Of a stretch of 64,000 nt of DNA, positions 30,123 to 63,999 are shown piece by piece. Position 1 is the stretch's first letter. Every line of letters starts with the position of its first letter. A program made the position numbers and the translations under genes. The notes beneath the pieces are model-generated. The model ran no database searches, had not been told where the DNA came from, and saw only the letters and a program-made list of their open reading frames with translations. This stretch comes from Verrucomicrobiaceae bacterium (GTDB lineage Bacteria > Verrucomicrobiota > Verrucomicrobiia > Verrucomicrobiales > Verrucomicrobiaceae). Location: assembly GCA_016713245.1 (NCBI GenBank), contig JADJPM010000001.1:1679076-1743075 (forward strand), in the 5' to 3' direction.

Positions 30123-30163
30123 GGTTCAAAAGGCTCCCACACGGCCTGCTTGGCGTTGTTACA
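30123..30163 (-). promoter_or_regulatory. Candidate ECF promoter TGTAAC-N14-CGTGT (copy 2)
   Basis: Near-identical to 26200-26240, ends 15 nt upstream of ATG 30108. Confidence 0.65.
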
Positions 30164-30210: not shown

Positions 30211-32295
30211 TCACTCCAGCCGCCACACAAAAACCGCGCCCTCATCCGCCACCACCAGCCGCTTTCCATCCGCTGAAACGGCCACGCAGCCACGCATCAG
30301 CCTCCCGGTGAAGTTTTCCGCCAGCTTCTTCGCCAGCCACACATCACCACCGGTCTTCATCAGCCGAAAAACGGCCGCAGGTTCATCCGTGATCACATAA
30401 AGCGTGCCGTTGGCCACATCGGCAGCGACACCACGCACCGGTGGCAGCGGCTCCACGAGCTTCAGCGGAGTCAAAACGCCGTTTTGCACGCTCGCGAGCC
30501 GCATTTCGTCCTCCACGGCCACGACGATCTCATGTCGCGTCAGAGTCACATCAACGAGGGCCGCCTTGGCCTCGACGAGCACCTTCGGCGCGTGCTCGTC
30601 TTTTAAAGAAACCGCGAAAAGCTGCCTCTCCGCCACCACGAGCGCGGTTTGCGCCGTGATGGATGCATCTCCACTCCAAATCGCAGGCGGCAGCTCCACC
30701 GGGCCTGCATTTTTCACCGGCAGCGGATGATCTCCCCACGCCGAATCCGCCGCCAGCAGACGCGCCTCGCCGAGATCAGCCAGATCGACATGTGAGACAT
30801 AGCCGGGATGCGTCCACGCCATCCGCGCACCATCCGCCGTGAAGGCCATGCCGTCCGCGTGCGTCTCCCGTATCCACGCCGCAGGCTGCTCACCCTTCAT
30901 CAGCCACGCCATGCCGCTGCCCACCGCCAGCCACGCCCGGTCATCCCAGCGCGGATGCAGTGTCAGTGAGCGTGGAGACATCGCCGAGCCATCGTTCAGC
31001 TCCGGCACGTGTGCGCGGAACACCGTCGGCTTTGGCAGCTCGCTTTTCAGCGCGGCCACGCGTTGCCACTCGAAGTTCTCCCTCACGTCCCGCACGCTCG
31101 CGGCCTCTTTGGACTCATCCGACTTCTTCGTCGCATTCGTCCCATCTGGCTGCCGCAGTCCAAAATACGCCCCCAAGGCCAAAACAGCCGCCACAGCCCA
31201 CCACCGGCCTCTTCCACGCGAAGGCCTCGTTGTGTTCAAAACACGCGTCGTGGCCCATTTCCACTCCACCGGCTCTGCCGGAGGCATTTTGGCCATCAAA
31301 GCCTTCAAATCGTGCCCGGCGCAAAACGGCTCCAAAGCCTCCGCCACCTCCGCGCAGCTCGAAAAACGATCCGCAGGCACATGCGCCGTCATCTTGGCCA
31401 AAACCGCCGCCAGCGCAGCCGAAACGCCCGCGCAATGCGCCGCGATGTCCGCCAGCGGCTGCTGCGCGATGCGATTCAGCCTCTTCAACAACGACGATTC
31501 CTTTTCGCGATCCACCCGCGGCGATTCACCCGCCAGAAGATGCCAAAGCGTCGCCCCGAGGCTGAAAACATCCACGCGCAGGTCCGCCGTGCTCGGCGAC
31601 TCCACCTGCTCCGGTGCCGCATAGTCGAGCGTGCCCACGAACTCGCTGCTCATCGTCAAACTCATGCCGCCGAGCCCCGCATCTGCGGCTGCAAACTGCG
31701 CCAGACCGAAATCCAGCAGCTTCACGCCCTCCGCGCCCACCATCACATTCCCCGGCTTCACATCGCGATGCACCAGCCCGCGCTCATGCGCATGATGCAG
31801 CGCCAGCGCCGCCTGCCGCGCGATCTCGCACGCATCCGCCACGCGCAGCGCTCCGGTTTGCTCCAGCAGCCGGTTCAAACTCATGCCCTGGATCAGCTCC
31901 ATCGTCAGAAACCAAGTCCCCTCCCGCTGCCCGGCATCAAAGCAGCGCACCACGCCCGGATGATCCACCTGCGCCGCCGCCTGCATCTCACGCTCAAAAC
32001 GCGTCAGCGTCGCCGCATCCCCGCGAAACGTCGGTGCCAGCACCTTCATCGCCATCTCGCGCCCGAGATGCCGGTGCTTCACCCGCCACACCGTGCCAAA
32101 GCCCCCGCGCCCGATCTTCCCGCCAAACGCCAGCTCCGGAAACAGCCCCATCAACGTCTCCGACGCCACCTCCGAATCCGCCGCGCCCTTCGCCACAGTC
32201 TCGGAATCCTCCTTCACCAGCGCCAATCCCAACAAACCTGCCTCACGCCCGGAGAGGGCGTCTGGAGCTGATGGTGAGGAAGGTTGATCAGGCAT
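30211..32295 (-). CDS. Membrane Ser/Thr protein kinase with extracytoplasmic beta-propeller-like domain
   Basis: IGRGGFG, AMK, HRDVKPGN, DFG, GTLDYAAPE; TM WWAVAAVLALGAYFGL. Confidence 0.9.
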   Translation of the reverse strand: MPDQPSSPSAPDALSGREAGLLGLALVKEDSETVAKGAADSEVASETLMGLFPELAFGGKIGRGGFGTVWRVKHRHLGREMAMKVLAPTFRGDAATLTRFEREMQAAAQVDHPGVVRCFDAGQREGTWFLTMELIQGMSLNRLLEQTGALRVADACEIARQAALALHHAHERGLVHRDVKPGNVMVGAEGVKLLDFGLAQFAAADAGLGGMSLTMSSEFVGTLDYAAPEQVESPSTADLRVDVFSLGATLWHLLAGESPRVDREKESSLLKRLNRIAQQPLADIAAHCAGVSAALAAVLAKMTAHVPADRFSSCAEVAEALEPFCAGHDLKALMAKMPPAEPVEWKWATTRVLNTTRPSRGRGRWWAVAAVLALGAYFGLRQPDGTNATKKSDESKEAASVRDVRENFEWQRVAALKSELPKPTVFRAHVPELNDGSAMSPRSLTLHPRWDDRAWLAVGSGMAWLMKGEQPAAWIRETHADGMAFTADGARMAWTHPGYVSHVDLADLGEARLLAADSAWGDHPLPVKNAGPVELPPAIWSGDASITAQTALVVAERQLFAVSLKDEHAPKVLVEAKAALVDVTLTRHEIVVAVEDEMRLASVQNGVLTPLKLVEPLPPVRGVAADVANGTLYVITDEPAAVFRLMKTGGDVWLAKKLAENFTGRLMRGCVAVSADGKRLVVADEGAVFVWRLE

Positions 32296-32424
32296 GGGCT
32301 GGGTATCAAACAAGATCAAGGCTACGCCGTCAAAGGGTCAAGGTGTCAAGACACCCTGCTTGACCTATCGCCCCTCCTTCTTGACTCTCTTGACCACTCT
32401 TTGACCCGTCTTTGACCTCTCCCC

Positions 32425-33132
32425 ATGCCCGACTTCCCCGACACCCGCTGGACCATGATCGCCCGACTGCGCTCAGCGGATGAGGCGCAGCGGCAGCGGG
32501 CCTTTGAGGAGCTTTGCGAGGACTACTGGCAACCGCTTTACACCTTCGCCCGCAGCCTCGGCAGCGGACCGGAGGACGCCGCGGACCTCACGCAGGACTT
32601 TGTGCTGAAGCTGCTGCAAAAAGACGGCCAGAGCTTTGACAACGTGCTCCCCGAGCGCGGTCGCCTGCGCACCTGGCTGCGCACCATTTTCCGACATCAC
32701 CTCAGCAACCATCACCGCGACCAAAACACGCTCAAACGCGGCAGCGCCATCACCTTCCAGCCGCTCGATCTCGACGCTCTCGAACGCGAATTCACCGCGC
32801 AAGACTCCGCCCGCAGCCCCGACGAGGCCTTTGACCGCGTGTGGATGCGCGATCTGCTCCGCCGTGCCCTCGCCCGACTCATCGCGAAGCACGACGAACG
32901 CGGCCGCGGCGATTTCGTCCGCACTTTGGAGCCTCACCTCACCGACAGCGCCTCGCTCGACCACACCGCACTCGCCGAAAAACTCCAGATCAGCGAAAAC
33001 GCCCTCCGCACCGCCCTTCATCGCCTACGCCGCGAGTATGGCGAGATCCTCCGCACCGAGGTCGCTGCCACTTTGCCCGAAGGCGATGACATTGATGCCG
33101 AGCTTCGTCATCTGCTGGCCGTGGCGGGCTGA
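32425..33132 (+). CDS. ECF RNA polymerase sigma factor (kinase-associated PVC type)
   Basis: FPDTRWT, YWQPLY, DAADLTQDF, GRLRTWL, region 4 ALRTALHRLRREY. Confidence 0.85.
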   Translation: MPDFPDTRWTMIARLRSADEAQRQRAFEELCEDYWQPLYTFARSLGSGPEDAADLTQDFVLKLLQKDGQSFDNVLPERGRLRTWLRTIFRHHLSNHHRDQNTLKRGSAITFQPLDLDALEREFTAQDSARSPDEAFDRVWMRDLLRRALARLIAKHDERGRGDFVRTLEPHLTDSASLDHTALAEKLQISENALRTALHRLRREYGEILRTEVAATLPEGDDIDAELRHLLAVAG

Positions 33133-52137: not shown

Positions 52138-52917
52138 ATGAAATCGATCTTTACCTTTCTTTGCCTCATCAGCCTGCTTTCCGCTCAGGAGGTCAAACTA
52201 CCGCCGAAGGAGCAGTTTCATCTGTTTTTGCTCGTCGGGCAATCCAACATGGCCGGGCGTGGCGTGGTGGAGGAGCAGGACAAGACGTCGCATCCGCGTG
52301 TGCTGATGCTGAGCAAGGACGGCCAGTGGGTGCCGGCAGTCGATCCGCTGCACTTCGACAAGCCAGCCGTGGGTGTGGGCTTGGGCAAAACCTTTGGCCA
52401 GCTCATCGCCGAGGCAAATCCGGGCGTGACCATCGGCCTCATTCCCTGCGCGGTGGGCGGCTCGCCGATTGATTCTTGGCAGCCTGGCGTGTTTTACGCA
52501 CCCACAAAGAGTCATCCTTGGGATGACACGGTGAAGCGTGTGGCGCTTTCTCTGCCGATGGGCACGATCAAAGGCATTCTGTGGCATCAGGGCGAGAGTG
52601 ATTGCAAACCGGAGCTGGCCTCCGCCTATGCGCCCAAGCTCCACGACCTCGTGAAACGCCTTCGCGAGCTGGTGAAAGCACCGAACGTGCCCTTCATCGC
52701 CGGGCAGATGGGCAAGTTCGACGAGGTGCCGTGGTCGCCGGAGATCGTGACGGTGGATCAGGCACATCAGGAGCTGCCCAAACACGTCTCCAACACCGCC
52801 TTCGTCACCGCCGAGGGCCTCAAGCACAAGGGCGACAAGATCCACTTCGATGCCGCGTCTTACCGCGAACTCGGAAAACGGTATGCGAAGGCATTCTCGA
52901 AGATGGCGGCCAAGTGA
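52138..52917 (+). CDS. Sialate O-acetylesterase (SASA/SGNH) family
   Basis: LLVGQSNMAGRG, GGSPI, ILWHQGESD, DKIHF. Confidence 0.88.
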   Translation: MKSIFTFLCLISLLSAQEVKLPPKEQFHLFLLVGQSNMAGRGVVEEQDKTSHPRVLMLSKDGQWVPAVDPLHFDKPAVGVGLGKTFGQLIAEANPGVTIGLIPCAVGGSPIDSWQPGVFYAPTKSHPWDDTVKRVALSLPMGTIKGILWHQGESDCKPELASAYAPKLHDLVKRLRELVKAPNVPFIAGQMGKFDEVPWSPEIVTVDQAHQELPKHVSNTAFVTAEGLKHKGDKIHFDAASYRELGKRYAKAFSKMAAK

Positions 52918-52928
52918 ATGCTCCACTT

Positions 52929-52956
52929 TTCACGCCGTCATTCGCACCAGCACGGC
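52929..52956. repeat. Direct repeat of the ilvA 3' end (att-like, left)
   Basis: TTCACGCCGTCATTCGC exact 17 bp, 24/28 extended, to 62829-62856. Confidence 0.75.
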
Positions 52957-53034
52957 AGCCCTTTAGCCATTGAGACAGCAGCAAACTTTCCTCACATGTT
53001 TGCCAAAGTGTGGCAGTCTGCTCTTTTTTCCGCA

Positions 53035-53769
53035 ATGACCCGGGAGCCACATCCGCCATCAAAGGCCGCCTCATTCCATACGACGAGGTGGACGCGTGTA
53101 GGCCTCGCCAAAACGGGGTCTGAGGATGGGAAGCGAGCCTTGGCGGATCTTTGTGATTCGTACTATGAGCCGGTCGTCGCCTTTCTGCGCTGGGAGTTGC
53201 GGGACGCGGACGCGGCACGGGACATGAGCCATGCGTTCTTCTCGGAGATGCTCGCTGGCGGCACGATTGCGGGAGTGGAGCAGGGGCGCGGGCGCTTTCG
53301 CTCTTACTTGCTGGGCGCGGTGAAGCATTTCCTCGCCAACCAGCGAGAAGCGGCTCGCCGCATGAAGCGAGGCGGTGGCGTGGTGAACGTTTCCCTCGAT
53401 GAGGACTTGTCCGGCGTGCTCAACTTACCTGATGAGAGGCAGATCTCGCCCGACGCAGCCTTTGACCGTGAATGGGCGCTGACCACGCTGGCGCATGCGA
53501 TGGAGACGGTCAAACAGGAGTGCGAGAAGGAAGGTAAGGCAGATTTTTTTCATCAAATCAAGCCCTGGCTGACGGGAGATGCCACCCATGGAGACCAGGG
53601 CGCGGTGGCGGAAGCATGCGCCATGAGTCCTGCGGCGCTGAAGATGGCCATTAGTCGCTTGCGCAGGCGATTTCGGGATTGCGTGCGAGCGGAGGTCGCC
53701 GGCACCTTGGATGATGTGGCGATGGTGGAGACGGAAATGCAGGAATTGTTCGCGGCTCTTTCATCATGA
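53035..53769 (+). CDS. ECF RNA polymerase sigma factor (kinase-associated PVC type)
   Basis: FHTTRWT, YYEPV, GRFRSYL, FDREWA, ALKMAISRLRRRF. Confidence 0.85.
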   Translation: MTREPHPPSKAASFHTTRWTRVGLAKTGSEDGKRALADLCDSYYEPVVAFLRWELRDADAARDMSHAFFSEMLAGGTIAGVEQGRGRFRSYLLGAVKHFLANQREAARRMKRGGGVVNVSLDEDLSGVLNLPDERQISPDAAFDREWALTTLAHAMETVKQECEKEGKADFFHQIKPWLTGDATHGDQGAVAEACAMSPAALKMAISRLRRRFRDCVRAEVAGTLDDVAMVETEMQELFAALSS

Positions 53770-53777
53770 ACTTATTT

Positions 53778-53803
53778 GGTTACCCATTCCGGCTCCTGCG
53801 TCA
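53778..53803 (+). promoter_or_regulatory. Candidate ECF promoter GGTTAC-N15-CGTCA (copy 1, kinase)
   Basis: Same motif and spacing at 56759 and 57344. Confidence 0.65.
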
Positions 53804-53812
53804 CTTGTCTGC

Positions 53813-56715
53813 ATGAGTGATTCGTCCCCCAGCTCCTGCCCGAAATGCCAAGCGGCCCTGCCCGCCCATGCGACGGAGGGATTGTGCCCGCGCTGCCTGA
53901 TGGCCCAGGTGATGCAGCCCTCACAGGTCTCCGCGCCTGAGGGGACACCACGACCCACGGGTGCAGCAGCGCCTGAGCTTCCCTTGCCGGAGGAGCTCAC
54001 CGCGTTGCTCCCAGCGGAAACCTATCGCGTGGATTATTTGATCGGTCGGGGTGGCATGGGCGCGGTTTACAAGGGGGAGCAGTTGCGGCTCGATCGCCCG
54101 GTCGCGATCAAACTCATGCGACGTGACCAGGGGCGGGACCATGGCTTTGAACAGCGTTTCCACCGTGAGGCGCTGGCCATGGCCAAGCTGAACCACCCGA
54201 ACATCGTGAGCGTCATCGACTATGGCGAGGCGGGTCCAGACTACCTCTACATCGTCATGGAGTTGGTGGAGGGTGCGGACATGATGGAGGTGCTCCGCAC
54301 CGGGCGCATGACGCAGGAGATGGCGCTGAGGCTGCTGCCGCAGATTTGTGACGCGCTCCAGTTCGCCCACGACCACGGCATCGTCCATCGCGACATCAAG
54401 CCGAGTAACATCATGCTCACCCGCGACGGTCGCATCAAGATGTGCGACTTCGGCCTGGCGAAGCGCCACGACGTGGAGAGCACCTTCCAGACCCGGAGCG
54501 GCACCGGGATGGGCACACCGGATTACGCCGCGCCGGAGCAGTTCAGCGCGGCGGACCAAGTGGATCACCGCGCGGACATCTATGCGCTCGGTGTGATGAT
54601 TTATCAGATGCTCACCGGCCATCTCCCTCGCGGAGCGTGGAAACCGCCGACACAGCACACGATGTGCGATCCGTTTTGGGATGAGATCGTGAGCCACGCG
54701 ATGCAGACCGATCCCAAGGACCGCTATCAGGCGGCCAGCGAGGTCAAATCCGATGTCAGCAGCATCCCGCTAGCCTCCGCTGATCAGCTTGGCCCGCGAC
54801 CAAGCACTGAGTCAGAGGGCCAGCACATGCCTACCCGCGCCGCCTCCCACACGCCGCTTATCCTCGGCATTGTGCTGTGCGTGGTCGTGCTCGCAGGCAT
54901 TCCCTTCTTTACCTCGCGGCCGGATGCTGGGGACAACGCTCCCGAGGCATCTCGTTCCGCCCCCGAGGCCGAAGTCCACACTTTCGCGGGTCATCGCTAC
55001 CAGTTCGTGCCCGGCGCGGACCGCTGGGAGGAGGCCAAGGCGAAGGCCGAGACGATGGGCGGGCACCTGGCGACGATCACGAGCAAGGAGGAGAACGAGT
55101 TCATCTACGCCACCTTTGGTGACAAACTCGATCCGGCCATCCGCGCCTCCAGCATCTGGATTGGCGGGTTTGCTGGCAGCATGGGCCAATCATTCAAATG
55201 GGTCACCGGCGAGCCTTTTGGCTTCACCGATTGGTCGGCGGGCGAGCCTGATTACTCCGGCACGTCGGGCCAGCCGATGCCAGGGACGTTTGGCGTGCTC
55301 ATCAAACACATGGGACGCTCAATTGGTTTGATGACCCCGTGAAGCGCTACGATTTGAAAGCTGGCTTCATCGTCGAGTGGGACGACATTGGCACCGCGAA
55401 GCTCGCACCGCTCTCCCCCGGCACCGTGGACTTGCTCGCACTGGCCGATTTCGTCAAAGATGCTGTAGGCGGCACCTGGCGTCGCGAGGGCACGGATTTG
55501 ATCGTGGCTGAAGATGAAGCCTCGTCCGGGAGAAAAGGGGTTCGTTTTGGTCTCGCCCTGCCGGTGCAGGTACAAGGTTCCTACCAGATCGAGGTCGAGT
55601 TCACGAGGCTCAGCCGAAAGCGAAACTCTGGGAATCTAGGCACGGTCTGCCTGCTCCTCCCGCTCCCGGACGGGCGCAGCGCGGCGGCGTTTTTCCAGGA
55701 GTCCAATCCCTACGCGGGGCTGGCGAGCGTGCGTGGCTACACCACCCGGCAGGCGGAAAATCCCACGCGCATCCCCAACCAGTTGGAGGATGACCGCCGC
55801 TACCGAGGCACTGTGAAGGTACTCATCAAGGGCGACCAAGTGGACATCGCCGCCACTCTGGATGGCAAACCTCTCTTTCAATTCCAAGGCCCGGTCACGG
55901 ATCTGGAGTCCCCGGATCTGTTAGTCATGGCGGACCCGGCTCGTCCCGGCATGAGAAGCATCGATCCCGTGGCGTGGCACAGCGTCCGCATCACCCCGCT
56001 GGACGGCGGCACGCTCACCCCGGTGAGGCCCGACGCCATTCCACCAGCAACCAGTGGGTCGGCGGCGGCCTCTGCGCCTCAGGCACCCGGAGCCGTGGAC
56101 CTGCTCGCCTTAGCTGATGTCGTCAAAGATGCGGAAGGCGGTGTCTGGCGTCGCGAGGGAGCGGATTTGACCACTGCCGACGATCCAGCCAAGCCCCGCG
56201 TCAAGAGCTCTGGCACCCGGCTCAGCCTCGCCCTCCCGGTGCGGGTGACGGGATCCTACCGTGTGGAGGTCGAGTTTACGAAACTTGGCCGCAGAGAAAC
56301 CGTCAGCGTGATCCTCCCGCTCGCGGACGGCCGGAGCGTGGTGGCGAATTTTCTGGAAAGCTCGGATTTCGCGGGGCTGGTCTACGTGCGTGGTTTCACC
56401 CTCAAGGACGCGGGCAACCCCACACGCACACTCCATCAGTTGGAGAACGAGCGCCGTTACCAGGCCTCGGTGGAGGTGCTCATCAACGGCGATCAAGTTC
56501 ACATCACCGCCACCTTCGAGGGCAAGCCGCTCTTTCGCTTCCAGGGGCCAGTGGCGGACCTCGACAGCCGCCAGTATGCCATGGCGGACCCGGCTCGGCC
56601 CGGCCTCAAAAGCATGGCCCCAGTGACGTGGCACACTTTTCGCCTCACCCCGCTGGATGGCGGCACGCTCACTCCGGTGAGGCCGGATGTGATCCTGCCG
56701 GCCACCAAGCCATAG
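53813..56715 (+). CDS. Membrane Ser/Thr kinase with C-type-lectin-like domain and two duplicated beta-sandwich domains; frameshift near 55317
   Basis: CPKC..CPRC N-terminus, IGRGGMG, HRDIKPSN, DFG, GTPDYAAPE; lectin motifs WEEAK..GGHLATI and NWFDD..GFIVEW split by the frameshift. Confidence 0.85.
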
Positions 56716-56758
56716 TGCGGGGGAGACCCGCGAGCCGCTGCCTGGCCGCAAAAAACCT

Positions 56759-56784
56759 GGTTACCTATCCCGGGCGGCGCGTCA
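56759..56784 (+). promoter_or_regulatory. Candidate ECF promoter GGTTAC-N15-CGTCA (copy 2)
   Basis: ctGGTTACctatcc...CGTCAggag. Confidence 0.7.
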
Positions 56785-56817
56785 GGAGCCTGCATGAGCC
56801 ACTCATCCGCTCTCGCC

Positions 56818-57318
56818 ATGAAAACCATCCTGTTCATCCTCGTCTGCGCATCCGCCGCCCTTTCGCCCGCCTTCGCCCAGGCGCAGGACACCGAAGTCAA
56901 GGTCCAGCGCCGCACTCTCGACCGGGAGGACAAGCTCAACCGCCCAAAGAAGAATGCTCAGGAGCTGACATGCGGCCTTCGCATCACCGTGAAGAACGCC
57001 ACCACCAAGCCGCTCGGGGAGGGCGAGATCGAGTGGGCCGTGCTCGTGCAGCGGCCGAGTGGCCAGCGCAAGGCGTTGTATAGCTCAGGGAAGGAAAAGC
57101 TCCCATCACTCCAAGCGTTGGCGGAGATGACGATGGATGTCGGAGCCGTCGCCGTGCAGCACGATGGGTCGAAACGCCAGGAAATGGAGTATCAAGTTAT
57201 CGTCCGCCGCGACGGGGTCGAGGTAGCGAAGGCGGAAAGCACCCCCAGCTTTTCCCAGCAGGCCGAATCGGCCAGCGGAGCCAAAAAGAAGAGCAAGGCC
57301 ACAGGAAAGCAGAAATAG
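56818..57318 (+). CDS. Secreted hypothetical protein
   Basis: Signal peptide MKTILFILVCASAALSPAFA. Confidence 0.7.
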   Translation: MKTILFILVCASAALSPAFAQAQDTEVKVQRRTLDREDKLNRPKKNAQELTCGLRITVKNATTKPLGEGEIEWAVLVQRPSGQRKALYSSGKEKLPSLQALAEMTMDVGAVAVQHDGSKRQEMEYQVIVRRDGVEVAKAESTPSFSQQAESASGAKKKSKATGKQK

Positions 57319-57343
57319 CCCGCCGGACGCCCTGAAAAAAACT

Positions 57344-57369
57344 GGTTACCAATCCGCTGGGGCACGTCA
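57344..57369 (+). promoter_or_regulatory. Candidate ECF promoter GGTTAC-N15-CGTCA (copy 3)
   Basis: ctGGTTACcaatcc...CGTCAggag. Confidence 0.7.
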
Positions 57370-57427
57370 GGAGTCTCCACGAGCCCGTCATCCGCCCTTT
57401 CGCTTCCCTCGGCCACCCACCCATTCC

Positions 57428-60400
57428 ATGAAAACCAAACATCATCGCCTGCTGCACCTCTGCCTTTTGATCGGCACCCTTTTACGTTGCCGCTTTGTTT
57501 CGAGAATCATCTTGAGCGGCTGTCTCGCTGCGCTCGGCTCGGCAGGGGGCACGCTACATTCTCAGGTGCCCAATCTCGTCAGCTACCAGGGCCGCGTCGC
57601 CGTCGGCACGGTGAATTTCGAAGGCACCGGCCAGTTCCGCTTCGCCCTGGTGAACACATCCGGCACCACCGTCTATTGGGGCAACGCGGCTGACACCACG
57701 CCCGCTGACGGCGTGCCGGATGCCGCCGTCTCCCTCACTGTGAGCAAGGGCCTCTACTCCGTGCTCCTCGGCGACACGAGCATCGCCAACATGGCCGCCA
57801 TCCCTGCAAGTGTATGGACCAATCCCGACGTGCGGCTCCGCGTTTGGTTCAACGACGGCGTGAACGGCAACCAGCTCCTCACCCCCGACCAGCGCCTCAC
57901 GCCCGTCGGCTATATCGCCGATGGCGCGGTTACATCCGCCAAACTGACCTCAGGCTCCGTGACGAGCACCCAGCTCGCCAGCGGCCTCACTCTTGGCGGC
58001 ACCACCAGCGGCACTTTCAGTGGCACTTTCAGTGGCAACGGGAATGCGCTCACCACCCTGAATGCCACCAGCCTCACCAGCGGCACCGTGGCCGATGCCC
58101 GGCTCTCGTCCAACGTGGCGCTTCGCAACAGCGCGAACACGTTCACGGGTGCCCTTTCCATGGGATCGAACAGCACCTTTATCGCGCCACACCGCCCCGG
58201 CAGCACGGGCAACGACAACAGTTTCATCGGCAACAACGCGGGCGGTTCCAACACCACGGGCGCATCGAACACCATCATGGGGAACACCAGCTTTGCGTAC
58301 AACACCACCGGCAGTTTCAATACCGGTGTCGGCCGCTACGCTCTCAACTTAAACATCGAGGGCCACGGCAATACTGCTGTGGGCATGAACGCGCTCCGTG
58401 CCACCACGAGCAGCAACAATACAGCGGTGGGCCGCGATGCGCTGATCAACAACACCACCGGCACTGGCAATATCGCGCTCGGCTATCTGGCAGGAAATGC
58501 GCTGACGACCGGCAGCAACAACATCCACATCGGAAACCTGGGGGTGGCTGGAGAAAGTGCCATCATCCGCATCGGCACGAGCCAGACGGATACATTCCTC
58601 ACCGGCATCATCCATGGCGACGGATCTGCGCTCACGGGTCTCAACGGCGCGAATCTGGCCGCAGGATCAGTCGCCAGCACACAACTGGCTGTGGGCGCTG
58701 TGCAGACGGCAGCCATCACGGATGGTGCCGTCACCGCCGCCAAGCTCGGGGCCGATGTCGGCCTCTGGTCCGCCGCTGGCGCGGATGTCTTCCGCAGCGC
58801 GGGAAATGTCGGCATCGGCACCGCCGCTCCTCTTGCGAAACTCGAAGTCTCCGACGGCACCGCAAGCCTTCAAATCCGCCCCGGCGAACTCAACGGCACC
58901 GTCTCCGCCGGTGACGTGACCTTGGAAATCTCCGGCAATCACACCCTCGGCATTTGGGACTCGCTCAAAGTCCACAGCAACCTCAACGTCGGAGGCGACT
59001 ACTACGGCCGCGGCCACATGTGGCTCCACGCCTTCGAGGGCGATGGAGTGAGCGGTACCGCTGTCCTCCAGGCCCGCGACACCAGCGGCACCTCCAGCAT
59101 CGGCCTCCAGCTCCGCACCCAATACACCGGCACCTGGCTGAACTCTCTGATGATCGCCCCGGACGGTAAAGTGGGCATCGGCACCAACGCACCCACGACC
59201 AGGCTCGAAGTGAGCGGCGACATCAAGGGCAGCGCCTTTATCGGCAGCGGGGCCGCGCTCACCGGCCTCCCGGGCGGCAACATCAATGCGGGCACGGTGG
59301 GAACCACCCAGCTCGCCGCCGCATCCGTCACCGCCGCCAAGCTCGGGACCGACGTGGGCCTTTGGAGTGTCAGCGGCGCGAATGTCTTCCGCAGCGCCGG
59401 CAACGTCGGCATCGGCACCAGTTCACCGGGGCGGCCACTGCAGGTTGATGGAACCTCCCCGGCGATGGTCATTGGCAACGAATTCATTCCAGGCAGGACC
59501 AGCCTGCTGATGGCAGTGACGGCGAATTCAGGAGGTCACTCCATCCTTCAGAGCACCAGCAGCGCGGGTGGCTCTTTTGGGGCGCTCAGCCTGCAGCCGA
59601 ATGGAGGTGATGTCGGCATCGGCACTGAAACACCCACGGCCAAGCTCGAAGTAAACGGCAGCATCAAAGGCACCTCATTCATCGGCAGCGGTGCAGGGCT
59701 CACCAACCTCAACGGGGCGAGCCTCACCGCAGGCAGCGTGAGCGGCACCCAGCTTGGGAGCAATCTCACCCTCGGCGGCATCACGACGGGCAGCTTCAGC
59801 GGCAACGGCGCGGGGCTGACAAACCTGCCCAATTCCGCCACCACCGGCACGGCGGCCAATACACCGAACACCCTCGTCCTGCGTGACGGCAGCGGAGACT
59901 TCTCCGCTCATTCCCTGTCCCTGAGCGGCAGCTTGAGCCTTCCCGCGACGACGGGCGGTGGTGACGGGGTGGTTTCCATCGGCGGTCAGCGTGTGCTCCA
60001 CACGCGCGGCTCCGGCAATGTCTTTATCGGCACGAACGCCGGCAACCTGACAATGACTGGCACCCATAACACAGCCAGCGGAAATAATGCGCTTGCCTTC
60101 AACACGACCGGCTACGCAAACATGGCCAGCGGAGAAAGTGCGCTTTTCTCCAACACGTCCGGCTTCTACAACACAGCCAACGGAAATAATGCGCTTTATT
60201 CAAACACGACCGGCTCCGGAAATACGGCCAGCGGACGTAGTGCGCTTTTCTCCAACACGACCGGCACCCACAACACGGCCAGCGGAACTAATGCGCTTGC
60301 CTTCAACACGACCGGCTCCGACAACACGGCCAGCGGACATAGTGCGCTTCGCTCCAACACGGAAGGCCACTTCAACACAGCCAGCGGAGGACAGGCGCTT

Positions 60401-61504
60401 TACTACAACACGACCGGCTCCGACAACACGGCCAGCGGAACTAATGCGCTTTTCTCCAACACGACCGGCTCCGACAACACGGCCATCGGAGAAGGTGCGC
60501 TTTACTACAACACGACCGGCTCCGGCAATATTGCGTTAGGCCAGGATGCCGGCGGCAACATCACAAACACCCACAACAACATCTGCATTGGCAATCTCGG
60601 TGTCACTGGCGACAGCGGGATCATCCGAATTGGCACGGATGGAACACACCAAAGAACCATCCTCGTCGGCAACGTGGGCATCGGCACGAACTCCCCCACG
60701 CAGGCGAAACTCGAGGTGAACGGTGGTGCCAGCACGACCGCCGGGCAGTTCGGCAACGTGCGCTACTTCAATCTTCAAATTGACGGCACCGTCAGCAACT
60801 GGGGCGGCGGACTCGTTTCCATCTATGCCTCCGACAACATCGTTGCCAGCGGCATCGGCCTCTTCTCCGATGCGCGGATCAAGAACATCACAGGCCGTTC
60901 CTCCTCGGTCACCGACCTCGAGACCCTACAAAAGATCGAAATCACCGATTACACCATGAAGGACACCGTCGCCAAAGGCACGGGCACCATCAAAAAAGTC
61001 ATCGCCCAGCAGGTCGAGAAAGCCTTCCCGCAGGCCGTCACCCGCGGCCAGGGCATCATCCCGGACATTTACCAAGCCGCCGCCGTGGAAAACGGCTGGG
61101 TCATGCTCGCCACCGATCTCCAGCCCGGCGACCGCGTGAAACTCCTCGGCGACAAGGACGAGGCGGTGCATGAAATCCTCGAAGTGGAGAAGGAGCGGTT
61201 CCGGCCCGCCGCGCTCCCCGCCGGTGGGAAGGTCTTCGTTTATGGGCGCGAGGTGAACGACCTGCGCCGTGTGGACTACGACGCCATCTCCATGCTCAAC
61301 GTCTCCGCCACCCAGGAACTGGCGAAGAAGCTCGCCGCGAAGGACGCGGAAATCGCCCGGCTCGCCGCGGAGAACGTGGAAATGAAGAGACAGCTCGTGG
61401 CGCAAGCCGAGCGGGACAAAGCCCTCGAAGCCCGCCTGGCCAGGCTGGAGCAAAACGTTCAGACCGCACGCGTGCAGACGGTGAAGGTGGCACTGAAGAA
61501 GTAA
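57428..61504 (+). CDS. Secreted tail-fibre-like beta-solenoid protein with peptidase S74 (intramolecular chaperone) domain
   Basis: Repeated GNVGIGT, NTAxGxxAL units; SDARIKN, GVIAQ-like KVIAQQV, VDYDAI; C-terminal coiled coil. Confidence 0.82.
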   Translation: MKTKHHRLLHLCLLIGTLLRCRFVSRIILSGCLAALGSAGGTLHSQVPNLVSYQGRVAVGTVNFEGTGQFRFALVNTSGTTVYWGNAADTTPADGVPDAAVSLTVSKGLYSVLLGDTSIANMAAIPASVWTNPDVRLRVWFNDGVNGNQLLTPDQRLTPVGYIADGAVTSAKLTSGSVTSTQLASGLTLGGTTSGTFSGTFSGNGNALTTLNATSLTSGTVADARLSSNVALRNSANTFTGALSMGSNSTFIAPHRPGSTGNDNSFIGNNAGGSNTTGASNTIMGNTSFAYNTTGSFNTGVGRYALNLNIEGHGNTAVGMNALRATTSSNNTAVGRDALINNTTGTGNIALGYLAGNALTTGSNNIHIGNLGVAGESAIIRIGTSQTDTFLTGIIHGDGSALTGLNGANLAAGSVASTQLAVGAVQTAAITDGAVTAAKLGADVGLWSAAGADVFRSAGNVGIGTAAPLAKLEVSDGTASLQIRPGELNGTVSAGDVTLEISGNHTLGIWDSLKVHSNLNVGGDYYGRGHMWLHAFEGDGVSGTAVLQARDTSGTSSIGLQLRTQYTGTWLNSLMIAPDGKVGIGTNAPTTRLEVSGDIKGSAFIGSGAALTGLPGGNINAGTVGTTQLAAASVTAAKLGTDVGLWSVSGANVFRSAGNVGIGTSSPGRPLQVDGTSPAMVIGNEFIPGRTSLLMAVTANSGGHSILQSTSSAGGSFGALSLQPNGGDVGIGTETPTAKLEVNGSIKGTSFIGSGAGLTNLNGASLTAGSVSGTQLGSNLTLGGITTGSFSGNGAGLTNLPNSATTGTAANTPNTLVLRDGSGDFSAHSLSLSGSLSLPATTGGGDGVVSIGGQRVLHTRGSGNVFIGTNAGNLTMTGTHNTASGNNALAFNTTGYANMASGESALFSNTSGFYNTANGNNALYSNTTGSGNTASGRSALFSNTTGTHNTASGTNALAFNTTGSDNTASGHSALRSNTEGHFNTASGGQALYYNTTGSDNTASGTNALFSNTTGSDNTAIGEGALYYNTTGSGNIALGQDAGGNITNTHNNICIGNLGVTGDSGIIRIGTDGTHQRTILVGNVGIGTNSPTQAKLEVNGGASTTAGQFGNVRYFNLQIDGTVSNWGGGLVSIYASDNIVASGIGLFSDARIKNITGRSSSVTDLETLQKIEITDYTMKDTVAKGTGTIKKVIAQQVEKAFPQAVTRGQGIIPDIYQAAAVENGWVMLATDLQPGDRVKLLGDKDEAVHEILEVEKERFRPAALPAGGKVFVYGREVNDLRRVDYDAISMLNVSATQELAKKLAAKDAEIARLAAENVEMKRQLVAQAERDKALEARLARLEQNVQTARVQTVKVALKK
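60068..60526 (+). repeat. Nine 51-bp coding tandem repeats (17 aa NTASGxxALxxNTTGxx)
   Basis: Direct reading of the DNA and protein period. Confidence 0.9.
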
Positions 61505-61522
61505 TCCCAATCACCCACGACC

Positions 61523-62557
61523 ATGGACACTTCCACCCTCATCGAACCCAATGGCGCGCAGCGCCCTGGACTGCGCGCAGCCCTGCTGCCGCCTTTCCGA
61601 GGCAGCCCTGCTGCCGCCGCAGTCTCCAAAGTTTTGAATCCTGATCCGCTGCCGCAGTCCAGGGGCTTCGCCCTCGCCTTCCTCATCCTCTTTGTCTCCC
61701 TCGCCTACGCCGGACCCCGCTCGTCCGCGAGCTACACCATCACCACCGACACCGTCAGCCATGGCGGCACCCGCATAACGAGCGCGGCTTACACGAACGA
61801 CGGCAGCGCTGGCGGCATCGTCGGCATCTCCACCGTCGCCGCTCCCGCGCAGATGGCCAAAGCGGGCTACACCGCCCAGCTCACCGAGGTCACCGCTCTC
61901 CAGCTCGCCGCCACGCCCACGACGATCAACGAAGGCACCACACGCCAGCTCACCGCCACCGCCACGCTCGATGATGCGACGACCACCGCGCTGCTCGCCA
62001 CCGATGTGACCTGGAGCGTGCCGAGCGGGCCGCTCACCAGCATCAGCACCAGCGGCCTGGCCACGGCGGGCATCGTGTATCAAAACACCGCCGCCACCGC
62101 GCAGGGCGTGTATTCCGGCATCACCGGCTCACTGAACCTCACCGTCATCAACACGAACACCGACGACATCCCAGGCTACTCTGGCGATGGTCTCGACGAC
62201 GCCTGGCAGGTCCAATACTTCGGTCTCAGCAATCCCAACGCCGCCCCGCTGCTCGATCCCGATGGTGATGGGCACACAAACGTGTTTGAAAACCTCGCCG
62301 GCATTGATCCCACCAGTGCCGCCAGCTTCTTCCGCGTGACGCAGAGCATGCTCAGCGCCAACAGCTTCCACCTGACCTTTCCCACCGTCCCAGGACGCAG
62401 TTACCAGCTCCAATCCTCCCCCAACCTCGCCCCTCCCTGGACGGACATCGGCACGGCGGAGGCTGGCACAGGAACCGCGCTGACACTACCTGTGAACGTG
62501 AGTGGCGAGACGCGTTACTTCTTCCGCGTGAGCGTTCAGCCGCTCCCCGAAGGCTGA
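61523..62557 (+). CDS. Secreted protein with Ig-like domain, DxDGDG motif and Verrucomicrobia-type C-terminal domain
   Basis: TQLTATATLDD, DGLDDAWQ, DPDGDG, YQLQSSPNL..W...YFFRV. Confidence 0.75.
   Translation: MDTSTLIEPNGAQRPGLRAALLPPFRGSPAAAAVSKVLNPDPLPQSRGFALAFLILFVSLAYAGPRSSASYTITTDTVSHGGTRITSAAYTNDGSAGGIVGISTVAAPAQMAKAGYTAQLTEVTALQLAATPTTINEGTTRQLTATATLDDATTTALLATDVTWSVPSGPLTSISTSGLATAGIVYQNTAATAQGVYSGITGSLNLTVINTNTDDIPGYSGDGLDDAWQVQYFGLSNPNAAPLLDPDGDGHTNVFENLAGIDPTSAASFFRVTQSMLSANSFHLTFPTVPGRSYQLQSSPNLAPPWTDIGTAEAGTGTALTLPVNVSGETRYFFRVSVQPLPEG
61564..61664. repeat. REP/MITE-like palindromic insertion in the 5' end of 61523
   Basis: CCCTGGACTGCG ... CGCAGTCCAGGG terminal inverted repeat; internal direct repeat GCAGCCCTGCTGCCGCC x2. 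Confidence 0.6.
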
Positions 62558-62609
62558 TTCCGCATTCGACACTCCGCTCAAAGACCTGCGCACCACCTAA
62601 AGCACCGCT

Positions 62610-62801
62610 ATGGCCAAAATCACCGCTGCGCGGGAAGCCAGGGCCGCGCCACTCGATGACATCTACCTCACCGCGCTCGATGTCTATGGGGCCGAGTTGA
62701 CCAAGGCAGGCAGGATCAAGGAAGCCAGCCAGATCCGCGTCCTCCGCGAAAGCACTTGGCAGTCATCCAAGTCAGCGCCGCCGCCCGTCACCAGCCCATA
62801 G
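62610..62801 (+). CDS. Small hypothetical ORF, possibly a gene remnant
   Basis: 63-aa helical ORF just inside the right repeat. Confidence 0.35.
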   Translation: MAKITAAREARAAPLDDIYLTALDVYGAELTKAGRIKEASQIRVLRESTWQSSKSAPPPVTSP

Positions 62802-62828
62802 ACCATGCCAGAGGCACCTGCCTCCATG

Positions 62829-62856
62829 TTCACGCCGTCATTCGCGCCAACGTGGC
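62829..62856. repeat. Direct repeat (att-like, right), coincides with the ilvA stop
   Basis: Matches 52929-52956. Confidence 0.75.
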
Positions 62857-63999
62857 CTCATCGACCGCTTTGCACGAGCGATAGCCTTCGCCCTGCTCGG
62901 GCAGATCAGCCAGGAAGGCATCGCGTTGAGCCGCTTCATGAAACGAGAGGCCGATGAGCGCACGACCGACACGCTCGCCGGACTGGCGGTAGTTGAAGTA
63001 GCAGAGGCTGGTGCGGTCGCGGATGAGGCGGGAGAGGAAGTCGTGCAGGGCACCGGGGCGTTCGTAGAAGTCGAGACGGAGGAAAAGCGGATGCGTGAGC
63101 AGATCACCGCGCAGCGGGATGGCGCGGAAGGCCACATCGACCGCGCCGCTGAGGTCCTGCCATTGGAAACCGCCCGCATCGAGCCGCGCGGGCAGTTCGG
63201 TGAGTTTTGCGGCGCTTTCGGCGGTGACGGTGAAGACAGGCCACGCCTCGTCGGGATGATGCAGGCCGTATTGGAAGTCGGCGATGTTCAGGCCCTCGAA
63301 ACAGGAGTCGAGCAGCGACAGCATCGCGCCGGGTCGCTCGGGAATGTTGATGCGCAGCGTGCGGGATACCGTGCTGGCCGCGCCTTCGCTTTGCGCGATG
63401 AGGCCGAGTTGGAGGAAGTCGATGTTTGCGCCGGTGATGACAATGAGAACCTTCTTGCCCGCCAGCGCCGCACGTTCCTTGAGCACCGCCGCGAGGCCCA
63501 TCGCGCCGCTGGGCTCGGAAATGCAGCGCAAGGTCTCCCACAGCACGCGGATGGCCGCGCTGACCTCCGCGTTCGTCACGGTGGAAATGCGATTGAGCAT
63601 CGTGCGGCAGATTTCAAAGGGCAGGGCACCTGCTTTTCGCACGGCGGTGCCATCGCAGAAGATGTCGAGGTCATGCAGCTCAACCGGCTTGCCACTTTCG
63701 ATGGCCGCTTTCATCGACGCCTGGCCCACACCTTCCACGCCGATGATTTCGATGCTGGGCCAGTAAGTTTTGAGCCAGTCTGCCGTCGCCGAGGCCATGC
63801 CACCGCCGCCGATTTGCAAAAACGCCGCGTCGAACGGTCCATGGCCCGAAAGCACGATTTCATCCGCCAGCGTGCCCTGACCGGCCATCACCGCGAGATC
63901 GTCGTAAGCATGCACATACACCGCTCCGCTGGCCTTTTCATGCTCGCGAGCCGCGAGCACCGCTTCGTCGTAACTGTCGCCCGTGAGCACGATCTGCAC
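62830..63999 (-). CDS. ilvA: Threonine ammonia-lyase, biosynthetic (5' part outside window)
   Basis: HAYDDLAVMAGQGT, IGGGG, FCDGTAV, EPSGA, GAN; ACT-like domains with PERPGA, FQY, FNYR. Confidence 0.9.
   Translation of the reverse strand: MQIVLTGDSYDEAVLAAREHEKASGAVYVHAYDDLAVMAGQGTLADEIVLSGHGPFDAAFLQIGGGGMASATADWLKTYWPSIEIIGVEGVGQASMKAAIESGKPVELHDLDIFCDGTAVRKAGALPFEICRTMLNRISTVTNAEVSAAIRVLWETLRCISEPSGAMGLAAVLKERAALAGKKVLIVITGANIDFLQLGLIAQSEGAASTVSRTLRINIPERPGAMLSLLDSCFEGLNIADFQYGLHHPDEAWPVFTVTAESAAKLTELPARLDAGGFQWQDLSGAVDVAFRAIPLRGDLLTHPLFLRLDFYERPGALHDFLSRLIRDRTSLCYFNYRQSGERVGRALIGLSFHEAAQRDAFLADLPEQGEGYRSCKAVDEATLARMTA

What the first reader, a model, noticed from the sequence alone, without database searches (positions are those of the whole stretch)
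53035..61504. ECF-kinase module 2: three GGTTAC-N15-CGTCA promoters including one before the kinase
Seen: an identical bipartite motif with exactly 15-nt spacing at 53778 (kinase), 56759 (secreted protein) and 57344 (S74 fibre protein). Spacers differ, so this is a motif rather than a duplication. It is distinct from the module 1 motif. Inference: the cognate promoter of the adjacent ECF, giving positive feedback on its own kinase and orthogonal specificity between the two paralogous modules.
Basis: partly seen in the sequence, partly recalled or inferred. Interest (0 to 1): 0.65.

Follow-up and report, generated by a model that had tools for sequence, protein, structure and literature searches.

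The report
Kinase-linked sigma factor promoter set
Three copies of a two-box promoter sequence next to a kinase-linked alternative sigma factor in a Verrucomicrobium are real and conserved in related bacteria, and most likely let the sigma factor switch on its own activating kinase and a few secreted fibre-like proteins, which makes this a sound but fairly ordinary regulon prediction with one unusual wiring detail.

Summary
Observation confirmed. GGTTAC-N15-CGTCA occurs exactly three times in the window, with 0 in shuffles. Genome-wide there are 5 exact hits in 7.1 Mb, and 3 of them lie here.

The conserved core is GTTACCnAT-N11-CG[CT]GTCA. A weight matrix built only from orthologous loci of other organisms finds just four sites in 14.3 million genome positions. 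These are the three reported sites and a fourth on another contig.

The site before the kinase is conserved in position:
- in 11 of 11 orthologous loci;
- in 22 of 23 more distant relatives;
- in at least 68 of 78 Verrucomicrobiota species loci.

It always sits in a 41-51 nt gap, and the kinase ATG lies 9-10 nt after the -10 box. This predicts a leaderless kinase mRNA.

The sigma gene itself lacks the motif here, so any feedback acts on the kinase.

- Sites 2 and 3 are duplicates of one promoter-plus-leader cassette, which itself appears to descend from the kinase promoter and its first codons.
- The leading G is not conserved.
- The kinase ORF carries a frameshift.
- Orthogonality between the two modules is untested.

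No transcript data could be consulted. This is a new variant of a known kind, of moderate interest.

The parts
53035..53769 (+). Divergent ECF-like sigma factor (244 aa), called ECF2 here
   Evidence: Pfam gives a weak PF07638 Sigma70_ECF match (E 0.0017, below cut-off); 13 of 24 family members match it, best 1e-5. Public sources name homologues sigma-24/ECF. In the Foldseek search of the AF2 model, seven of the eight best hits are ECF sigmas, but E is 0.13-0.65 and the model pLDDT is 62.
53778..53803 (+). Site 1: promoter-like GGTTAC-N15-CGTCA in the 43-nt sigma-kinase gap; the -10 box ends 9 nt before the kinase ATG
   Evidence: Conserved in position in orthologues and across the phylum. Scores 35.4 bits with the matrix built from other organisms.
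53813..55342 (+). Hanks-type Ser/Thr kinase: N-terminal CxxC...CxxC motif, kinase domain, transmembrane segment, C-type-lectin-like domain cut short by a frameshift near 55300-55320
   Evidence: Pkinase E 8e-51, Lectin_C E 2e-7. tblastn with orthologous kinases switches frame at this point.
55339..56715 (+). Continuation of the kinase sensor region in another frame (end of the lectin domain plus two tandem about 220-aa domains); not a separate gene in orthologues
   Evidence: The 767-aa orthologous kinase aligns across the frame change at 61-76% identity. Internal tandem duplication: families D3, D5, D7, D10, D11.
56759..56784 (+). Site 2: promoter-like GGTTAC-N15-CGTCA followed by the conserved leader GGAGCCTGCATGAGCCAyTCATCCGC
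   Evidence: Homologous sites at the same place in orthologous loci L043, L046, L053 and L056. Matrix score 43.5 bits.
56794..57318 (+). Small secreted Lys-rich protein (signal peptide starts at the ATG at 56818; an in-frame ATG at 56794 lies 9 nt after the -10 box)
   Evidence: No Pfam match. One paralogue at genome contig C4:666004-666498, and no homologue in 40 related genomes.
57344..57369 (+). Site 3: lineage-specific duplicate of the site 2 promoter-plus-leader cassette
   Evidence: Absent from the equivalent gap in orthologues. Matrix score 29.4 bits.
57428..61504 (+). 1358-aa secreted repeat protein with a C-terminal S74 intramolecular-chaperone domain (fibre-like)
   Evidence: Peptidase_S74 E 5e-5 at residues 1147-1205. 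S74 proteins follow the kinase in orthologous loci L046/L047, L050 and L056.
61523..62557 (+). 344-aa secreted protein, 18 nt after the fibre gene; probably the same transcript
   Evidence: No motif in the gap.
52929..52956 (+). Left copy of a 28-nt direct repeat that brackets the whole 9.9-kb module
   Evidence: family D14 (86% identity to 62829-62856). The right copy is the 3' end of the minus-strand ORF 62830-63999.
62829..62856 (+). Right copy of the 28-nt direct repeat
   Evidence: family D14.

Best explanation
The three sites are promoters of the ECF (group 4) sigma type. They are most likely read by the divergent ECF-like sigma factor encoded at 53035-53769. That sigma factor is in turn activated by the membrane Ser/Thr kinase encoded directly downstream.

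Inferred working model:
1. The sigma and kinase genes are transcribed at a basal level from an unrelated, conserved upstream region.
2. The lectin-domain kinase senses an extracellular cue and phosphorylates the sigma factor.
3. The active sigma factor starts transcription at GTTACCnAT-N11-CG[CT]GTCA.

Site 1 lies inside the 43-nt sigma-kinase gap, and its -10 box ends 9 nt before the kinase ATG. The induced kinase transcript should therefore have no leader or almost none. The loop amplifies the kinase, not the sigma factor.

Sites 2 and 3, and a fourth site on another contig, drive a small secreted protein, an S74-chaperone fibre-like protein with its downstream partner, and a 2336-aa secreted repeat protein.

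Shown here: the motif, its uniqueness in the genome, its conservation in position and sequence, and the gene content.

Inferred: which sigma factor reads it, where transcription starts, phosphorylation, and the feedback loop.
For: Uniqueness:
- 3 exact hits against 0 in shuffles.
- A matrix trained only on sites from other organisms picks exactly 4 of 14.26 million positions above 15 bits.

Shape of the conservation:
- Across 18 aligned sites, information is concentrated in TT.GTTACC.AT.C and CGCGTCA, while the spacer is free and its length is fixed.

Position:
- All sites are intergenic and on the coding strand.
- No sigma-70-like promoter is found anywhere in 52800-62900.

Orthologous loci (sigma 69-91% identical; synteny sigma, lectin kinase, small secreted genes and/or large S74/repeat protein in the loci long enough to show it):
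- All 11 distinct loci keep the kinase site with N15 spacing and 9 nt to the start. The start is ATG in 10 loci and ATA in L053.
- Four keep a second site before the first gene after the kinase.

Wider family:
- 22 of 23 loci at 53-63% identity fit hexamer-N15-C[GAT][TG]CA-N9/10-ATG.
- So do 68 of 78 species loci across Verrucomicrobiota.
- Kinase alignments begin at residue 1 of that ATG.

Link to the neighbouring sigma factor:
- The -35 hexamer differs between subfamilies and tracks residue 204 of the predicted sigma-4 recognition helix. Met goes with GTT/GTG and Val/Ile with GTA, in 96 of 96 loci.
- In 30 of 94 loci the same -35 core also precedes the sigma gene itself. A class-shuffled control gives a mean of 1.4 and a maximum of 7.

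Alternatives that found no support:
- No anti-sigma domain in the module.
- No Rfam family and no excess RNA structure at the sites.
Against:
- The sigma identity of the 244-aa protein rests on weak matches: Pfam below cut-off, no PDB sequence match, and Foldseek E no better than 0.13 on a pLDDT-62 model.
- The Met/Val-to-base association reduces to only 2 independent changes on the tree, so it is not statistically significant.
- The best-scoring site in the genome lies beside a different ECF/kinase pair on contig C4.
- About 24 paralogous sigma genes exist in the genome, so another sigma factor could read the motif.
- Sites 2, 3 and the C4 site are copies of one cassette. Their similarity to each other is partly inherited rather than independently selected.
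- In sites 2, 3 and the C4 site, and in many distant relatives, AGGA(G) follows the -10 box at Shine-Dalgarno distance from the ATG. Part of that conservation could therefore serve translation rather than transcription.
- The kinase ORF is frameshifted. If that is real, the loop may be impaired in this strain.
Confidence: 0.72

Rival explanations
1. The sites are genuine ECF-type promoters but are read by a different sigma factor. Candidates are one of the roughly 24 paralogues or the PF07638-type ECF next to the fourth site on contig C4. On this reading, adjacency to this sigma gene is not a regulatory link.
For: - The best-scoring site (47.8 bits) sits beside another ECF (C4:665165-665725) and another kinase (C4:673628-677884).
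- There are many paralogous sigma/kinase pairs in the genome.
- The sigma gene itself has no copy of the motif in this orthologue group.
Against: - The kinase-proximal site stays glued to this sigma family in at least 100 loci from many species.
- Its -35 hexamer changes together with the family's sigma-4 helix.
- In 30 of 94 loci the same core also precedes the sigma gene.
- The upstream regions of the C4 sigma and kinase genes carry no such motif.
- The C4 site is a copy of the site 2/3 cassette together with the paralogous small secreted gene.
Confidence: 0.13
2. The sites are not promoters. They are inherited copies of an intergenic or 5'-UTR cassette, conserved for translation initiation or mRNA features (for example the AGGAG-N5-ATG in site 2), or simply not yet decayed.
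For: - Sites 2, 3 and C4 share about 75 nt including the leader.
- The leader resembles the first codons of the kinase gene.
- An AGGA(G) follows the -10 box in sites 2, 3 and C4 and in many distant relatives.
Against: - Conservation is two-box with a fixed 15-nt spacer of free sequence.
- The kinase sites of the orthologue group have no Shine-Dalgarno-like sequence at all, yet keep CGTCA-N9-ATG.
- The ATG after sites 2/3/C4 is not conserved: it reads ATG, ACG, GTG or TGA.
- There is no RNA-structure signal and no Rfam match.
- The hexamer varies between subfamilies in step with the sigma-4 helix.
Confidence: 0.08
3. The motif is the binding site of a non-sigma DNA-binding regulator (an operator).
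For: None specific. The only point in its favour is that sequence analysis cannot say which protein binds.
Against: - The motif is asymmetric, strand-specific and always upstream on the coding strand.
- It has the ECF-typical CGTC -10 box and an AC-ended -35 box.
- No transcription-factor gene is conserved in the module.
Confidence: 0.04

Closest known systems
Autoregulated ECF sigma promoters (for example E. coli sigmaE GGAACTT-N16-TCAAA; B. subtilis sigmaX/sigmaM/sigmaW TGTAAC/TGCAAC/TGAAAC-N16-17-CGxx; cited from memory)
   Same: - Two-box motif with an AC-ended -35 box, a CGTC-type -10 box and a rigid spacer.
- Clustered next to the sigma gene and defines a small local regulon of exported proteins.
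- Different paralogues use different -35 boxes.
   Different: - In this orthologue group the motif is not upstream of the sigma gene. It sits inside the 43-nt gap after it, so only the kinase and downstream genes are induced.
- The start codon lies 9-10 nt after the -10 box, which predicts a leaderless mRNA.
- There is no anti-sigma gene.
ECF sigma factors activated by Hanks-type Ser/Thr kinases: EcfP/PknT of Vibrio parahaemolyticus and EcfK/PknS of Xanthomonas citri (ECF43), and the kinase-linked groups ECF59-62, ECF217, ECF267 and ECF283 (PMC7826278, PMC8999054, PMC13147305)
   Same: - A sigma gene next to a membrane Hanks kinase with an extracytoplasmic sensor domain.
- No anti-sigma factor.
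- Targets are envelope or secreted functions.
   Different: - The sequence family is different. There is no match to TIGR02999 and PF07638 is below cut-off.
- Region 2.2 keeps acidic residues (ELRDADAAR-D/E), and the neighbouring Ser is not conserved. The ECF43 phospho-switch therefore cannot simply be assumed.
- I found no description of an internal kinase promoter for those systems in the papers read.
Kinase-linked ECF regulons noted by this scan in other Verrucomicrobia genomes (AI notes e1-2142856, e1-4599605, e1-3102766)
   Same: - Two-box ECF-type motifs near kinase-linked sigma genes.
- Some end 7-11 nt before start codons and include kinase genes.
   Different: - The motif sequences and the target genes differ.
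- Those notes are unchecked leads, not evidence.

Membership tests
ECF (group 4) sigma-dependent promoter | Two conserved boxes (-35, -10) separated by a spacer of fixed length and free sequence | tested here: met
   18 aligned sites: information peaks at TT.GTTACC.AT.C and CGCGTCA, and the spacer is always 15 nt from GTTAC. N15 spacing holds in 22 of 23 and 68 of 78 wider loci.
ECF (group 4) sigma-dependent promoter | Intergenic, on the coding strand, upstream of genes near the sigma gene; rare elsewhere in the genome | tested here: met
   four sites in 14.26 million positions, three of them in the module.
ECF (group 4) sigma-dependent promoter | Transcription starts a few nt downstream of the -10 box | not testable with these tools
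ECF (group 4) sigma-dependent promoter | Activity depends on the cognate sigma factor | not testable with these tools
   Indirect evidence only: co-variation of the -35 box with the sigma-4 helix in 96 of 96 loci but with 2 independent events, and the same core before the sigma gene in 30 of 94 loci.
ECF (group 4) sigma-dependent promoter | Classical autoregulation: the motif lies upstream of the sigma gene itself | tested here: not met
   There is no matrix hit upstream of 53035. The orthologue group conserves a different upstream pattern, TTTTCC...GTGGCAG. The feature is met in other subfamilies.
ECF sigma factor (the protein at 53035-53769) | [quoted passage not shown] | tested here: inconclusive
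   - PF07638 scores 18.7 bits against a cut-off of 21.1; 13 of 24 homologues match it; Sigma70_r2 matches 2 of 24.
- The PDB profile search finds nothing.
- Seven of the eight best Foldseek hits are ECF sigmas, but at E 0.13-0.65.
Kinase-activated ECF (ECF43-like) | Hanks-type kinase gene conserved next to the sigma gene, and no anti-sigma factor | tested here: met
   A kinase lies directly downstream in 78 of 80 species loci, in 23 of 23 relatives and in all 11 distinct orthologous loci. No anti-sigma domain in the module.
Kinase-activated ECF (ECF43-like) | Loss of the acidic DAED motif in region 2.2, with a conserved phospho-acceptor Thr/Ser (PMC8999054, PMC13147305) | tested here: inconclusive
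   The region reads ELRDADAAR(D/E)(M/L)(S/T/G/A)H. Acidic residues are kept and the Ser is not conserved. A conserved N-terminal FHTTRWT motif offers other candidate sites.
Kinase-activated ECF (ECF43-like) | Match to the family's sequence model | tested here: not met
   NCBIfam gives no TIGR02999 hit, only a 20-bit partial TIGR02989 match. ECF-Hub group models are not available here.
Leaderless mRNA (kinase transcript) | The 5' end lies at or within a few nt of an AUG start codon | not testable with these tools
   Geometry only. The -10 box ends 9-10 nt before the ATG in the 22 matching loci of 23 relatives, in all 11 orthologous loci and in most of the 68 matching species loci; the search there allowed 8-11 nt.
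Leaderless mRNA (kinase transcript) | AUG (not GUG/UUG) start and no Shine-Dalgarno sequence | tested here: met
   The start is ATG in 10 of 11 orthologous loci (one ATA) and in all 22 matching relatives. The orthologue-group kinase sites have no AGGA/GGAG. Many distant relatives do carry AGGA.

The most novel reading that the evidence does not exclude
In a phylum-wide family of kinase-linked ECF-like sigma factors of Verrucomicrobiota, the component under sigma control is the activating kinase. It is expressed as a leaderless mRNA from an ECF promoter packed into a 41-51-nt gap after the sigma gene. In some lineages, including this one, the kinase is the only one of the pair under this control. 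New regulon members arise by copying that kinase promoter together with the first kinase codons in front of other genes, as seen for sites 2, 3 and the contig C4 site. A single sigma-4 residue (Met204 versus Val) sets the third base of the -35 box.
Probability: 0.4. Interest if true: 0.55.

Novelty: new variant of a known kind. Interest (0 to 1): 0.42.

Why it matters
Kinase-linked ECF sigma factors are abundant in Verrucomicrobiota and Planctomycetes; this genome alone has about 24. Almost none has a known target promoter or regulon.

This locus offers:
- a precise, testable promoter (GTTACCnAT-N11-CG[CT]GTCA);
- a four-promoter regulon made of the kinase, a small secreted protein, an S74 fibre-like protein and a giant repeat protein;
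- a circuit in which the activator kinase, not the sigma factor, is amplified, probably from a leaderless transcript;
- a candidate one-residue/one-base specificity rule (Met204 or Val against T/G or A).

That rule could be tested directly and used to design orthogonal sigma/promoter pairs. Conceptually it remains an ECF regulon prediction, and similar ones have been noted repeatedly in this scan.

Tried and rejected
- Looking for further copies of each relative's kinase-site motif within about 13 kb of 22 related loci gave almost nothing except the copies before the sigma gene in L021 and L022. Multi-site clustering is therefore specific to this orthologue group.
- Homologues of the small secreted protein were sought in 40 related genomes; none was found.
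- Genome-wide searches with the two closest paralogues' motifs, allowing one mismatch, returned only chance-like scatter.
- The more distant sigma/kinase paralogues in this genome do not show the N15-CGTCA-N9-ATG layout.
- A profile search of the sigma family against PDB sequences found nothing.
- A phylogenetic contrast test of the Met/Val-to-base association had only 1-2 independent pairs and cannot reach significance.
- I considered CGTCA at 52936-52940 as a promoter for the sigma gene. I rejected it because it lies inside the 28-nt direct repeat copied from the 3' end of another gene and the -35 position does not fit.
- I considered a sigma-54 reading of the conserved GTGGCAG upstream of the sigma gene. 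I rejected it because the GG-GC spacing is wrong (read).
- A known RNA family or a structured RNA at the sites was rejected.
Full report
**Observation**

The pattern GGTTAC-N15-CGTCA matches exactly three times in the 64-kb window, at 53778, 56759 and 57344, all on the + strand. It had no match in 100 dinucleotide-preserving shuffles. The window is C1:1679076-1743075 of a 7.13-Mb, five-contig genome. Genome-wide the exact pattern occurs five times, and three of those are here.

All three copies are intergenic and on the coding strand:
- Site 1 begins 8 nt after the stop of the sigma-like gene, and its -10 box ends 9 nt before the kinase ATG (53813).
- Site 2 begins 43 nt after the stop at 56715. 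Its -10 box ends 9 nt before an in-frame ATG (56794) and 33 nt before the ATG that opens a signal peptide (56818).
- Site 3 begins 25 nt after the stop at 57318, and its -10 box ends 58 nt before the ATG at 57428.

CGTCA. Sites 2 and 3 also share an upstream A-run and about 25 nt of downstream leader.

**Genes**

- 53035-53769 encodes a 244-aa protein with only weak matches to ECF sigma models. PF07638 scores 18.7 bits against a cut-off of 21.1, and NCBIfam gives only a partial TIGR02989 match.
  - Its homologues number in the thousands and are named sigma-24/ECF by public sources, among them one in Chthoniobacter flavus Ellin428.
  - Of 24 aligned homologues, 13 match PF07638 and 2 match Sigma70_r2.
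  - A profile search of PDB sequences finds nothing.
  - An AlphaFold model is mediocre (pLDDT 62). Seven of its eight best Foldseek matches are ECF sigmas (AlgU, SigW, SigL, RpoE), at E 0.13-0.65.
  - I treat it as a divergent ECF-like sigma factor, with that caveat.
- 53813-55342 is a Hanks kinase with a C-type-lectin-like C-terminal part.
- The apparent next gene (55339-56715) is the continuation of the kinase's sensor region in another frame. Orthologous kinases of 534-767 aa align straight across a frame change near 55300-55320.
- Downstream lie a 166-aa secreted protein, a 1358-aa repeat protein with a C-terminal S74 chaperone domain, and a 344-aa secreted protein.
- No anti-sigma domain is present.
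- No sigma-70-like promoter or convincing terminator is found in 52800-62900.

**Orthologous loci**

A protein search found closer relatives of the sigma factor (69-91% identity) on metagenome and MAG contigs. I fetched 11 distinct loci. The longer contigs share synteny: sigma gene, lectin kinase, small secreted genes and/or a large S74/repeat protein. The flanking genes differ in every case.

- All 11 keep the kinase site as xGTTAC(C/T)nnT-N11-C(G/A)TCA-N9 followed by the start. The start is ATG in 10 loci and ATA in L053.
- Four loci (L043, L046, L053, L056) keep a second site before the first gene after the kinase. It has the same -35 box, N15 spacing, a (C/T)GTCA -10 box and the same leader as site 2.
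- The gap equivalent to site 3 is short and has no motif in orthologues. Site 3 is therefore a recent copy of the site 2 cassette.

Aligning 18 sites shows information concentrated in TT.GTTACC.AT.C and CGCGTCA, with a free spacer.

**Independent test of enrichment**

I built a weight matrix from the 14 sites of other organisms only and scanned both strands of this genome, 14.26 million positions in all. Four positions exceed 15 bits:
- C4:666518, at 47.8 bits;
- site 2, at 43.5 bits;
- site 1, at 35.4 bits;
- site 3, at 29.4 bits.

The fifth best scores 14.0 and lies just upstream of the closest paralogous sigma gene.

The C4 site follows a paralogue of the small secreted gene and precedes a 2336-aa secreted repeat protein. 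It is a third copy of the site 2/3 cassette. An nhmmer profile of the cassette finds only these three copies, plus site 1 weakly. The sigma gene next to the C4 site is of a different, PF07638-like type, and the upstream regions of that sigma gene and its kinase gene show no such motif.

**Wider family**

- Among 23 loci with sigma factors 53-63% identical (relatives plus two paralogues in this genome), 22 carry hexamer-N15-C[GAT][TG]CA-N9/10-ATG in the sigma-kinase gap. In all 23, the kinase alignment begins at residue 1 of that ATG.
- In 80 loci from species-representative genomes across Verrucomicrobiota (Verrucomicrobiaceae, Prosthecobacter, Chthoniobacter, Pedosphaera, Limisphaerales, Opitutales), 78 have the kinase directly downstream. 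Of those, 68 fit the strict pattern and most others are near-fits. The gap is 41-51 nt in most.
- The -10 box is nearly constant. The -35 hexamer falls into classes: GTAAC, GTTAC, GTTAT, GTTCG, GTAAG, GCAAC and others.
- More distant sigma/kinase paralogues in this genome lack the layout.

Two indirect lines point that way.

1. The hexamer class tracks the predicted sigma-4 recognition helix (SPAALK-M-AISRLRRRFR). Residue 204 is Met with GTT/GTG hexamers and Val or Ile with GTA hexamers, in 96 of 96 loci. On a tree built without those columns, each trait changed only twice. The association therefore rests on about two events and is not significant.
2. In 30 of 94 loci, a site with the same -35 core also precedes the sigma gene. 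A control with cores drawn from other classes gives a mean of 1.4 and a maximum of 7.

In the present orthologue group, the region upstream of the sigma gene instead conserves a different pattern (TTTTCC ... GTGGCAG) and has no matrix hit.

**Mechanism**

The best reading is that these are ECF-type promoters read by the adjacent sigma factor once its kinase has activated it. This is analogous to EcfP/PknT and EcfK/PknS (PMC8999054, PMC13147305).

Because the motif precedes the kinase but not the sigma gene, the feedback would amplify the kinase. Because the -10 box ends 9-10 nt before a nearly invariant ATG, and the orthologue group has no Shine-Dalgarno sequence there, the induced kinase mRNA would be leaderless or nearly so. 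This fits my recollection that ECF transcription starts lie about 6-10 nt after the CGTC box.

The leader of the site 2 family (ATGAGCCAyTCATCC) resembles the first kinase codons (ATGAGCGAyTCATCC). This suggests that target promoters arose by copying the kinase promoter with its 5' coding end.

No step of this mechanism has been shown experimentally. The ECF43-type phospho-switch cannot simply be assumed, because region 2.2 keeps acidic residues and the adjacent Ser is variable.

**Rivals**

- Another sigma factor reads the motif. The C4 context and the many paralogues argue for this; the tight linkage to this family argues against it.
- The elements are inherited 5'-UTR or translation cassettes. 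The AGGAG-N5-ATG in site 2 argues for this. The two-box conservation, the kinase sites that lack a Shine-Dalgarno sequence, the non-conserved ATG, and the lack of RNA structure or an Rfam hit argue against it.
- A non-sigma regulator binds the sites. Nothing specific supports this.

**Comparison and novelty**

Kinase-linked ECF groups are known from genome surveys (ECF43, ECF59-62, ECF217, ECF267, ECF283; PMC7826278), and two ECF43 pairs have been studied. Most ECF operons are autoregulated from a promoter upstream of the sigma gene (PMC8103513). In the papers I could read, I found no description of a promoter placed between the sigma and kinase genes or of leaderless kinase transcripts. Supplementary group descriptions were not available.

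Earlier AI notes of this scan report similar kinase-linked ECF regulons, one of them with near-leaderless layouts, in other Verrucomicrobia. The theme therefore recurs. I rate this a new variant of a known kind, of moderate interest.

**Module 1**

The other sigma/kinase pair in the window (sigma 32425-33132, kinase 30211-32319, divergent) has its own repeated motif, TGTAAC-N14-CGTGT, at 26216 and 30139 on the minus strand. The two motifs differ. Orthogonality between the modules is plausible but untested.

Noticed in passing
window 55290-55330: The kinase ORF changes frame inside its C-type-lectin-like domain. Orthologous kinases read straight through into what looks here like a separate 458-aa ORF (55339-56715). 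This is either a real 1-nt frameshift or a homopolymer assembly error (AAA/GGG runs).
   Followed up: partly
window 52929-52956 and 62829-62856: A 28-nt direct repeat (86% identity) brackets the whole 9.9-kb sigma/kinase/target module. The right copy is the 3' end of the minus-strand ORF 62830-63999. Orthologous modules sit in a different genomic context in every contig fetched, so the module behaves like a movable cassette, yet it contains no integrase.
   Followed up: partly
genome contig C4:665165-677884 (outside the window): A second locus contains a PF07638-type ECF, a paralogue of the small secreted protein, the best-scoring copy of the motif (C4:666518), a 2336-aa secreted repeat protein and a 1418-aa kinase. 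It also carries two copies of a roughly 200-nt repeat (GTAGGCCGGATGTGTTCGGTG...CCAAACACATCCGGCC), one after the sigma gene and one before the kinase gene.
   Followed up: partly
genome contig C1:2102754 minus strand (outside the window): TGTTAC-N15-CGTCA lies directly upstream of the closest paralogous sigma gene (59% identical; C1:2102729-2101992). It is the fifth-best matrix hit in the genome (14.0 bits). This could mean cross-regulation between paralogous sigma factors.
   Followed up: no
window 52960-53034 and the equivalent regions of orthologous loci: The region upstream of the sigma gene conserves a different pattern, cATTTTcC ... CAAG ... T-GTGGCAG-nCTG, about 20 nt before the ATG. It is neither sigma-70-like nor ECF-like by eye. 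The promoter of the sigma gene itself is unresolved.
   Followed up: partly
ECF2 protein residues 13-21 and 111-115 (window 53071-53097, 53365-53379): Two nearly invariant motifs mark the whole sigma family: an N-terminal FHTTRWT (three Thr conserved in over 90%) and KRGGG in the inter-domain linker. KRGG also occurs in the PF07638-type sigma factor on contig C4. Both are candidate kinase-docking or phospho-acceptor sites.
   Followed up: no
locus L053, 4510-4520: In one orthologous contig the kinase start codon reads ATA instead of ATG, at the conserved distance from the -10 box. It may be a sequencing error, a decaying gene or a non-AUG start.
   Followed up: no
locus L051, 10736 and 14552: A Prosthecobacter MAG carries two kinase genes in tandem after the sigma gene. 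Each is preceded by an identical copy of the promoter and the same first codons. This is a duplication of the promoter-plus-5'-coding unit, of the kind proposed as the origin of sites 2 and 3.
   Followed up: no
window 26216-26240 and 30139-30163, minus strand: The module 1 motif TGTAAC-N14-CGTGT is confirmed twice (0.03 expected by chance), each copy preceded by an A-run, as in module 2.
   Followed up: partly
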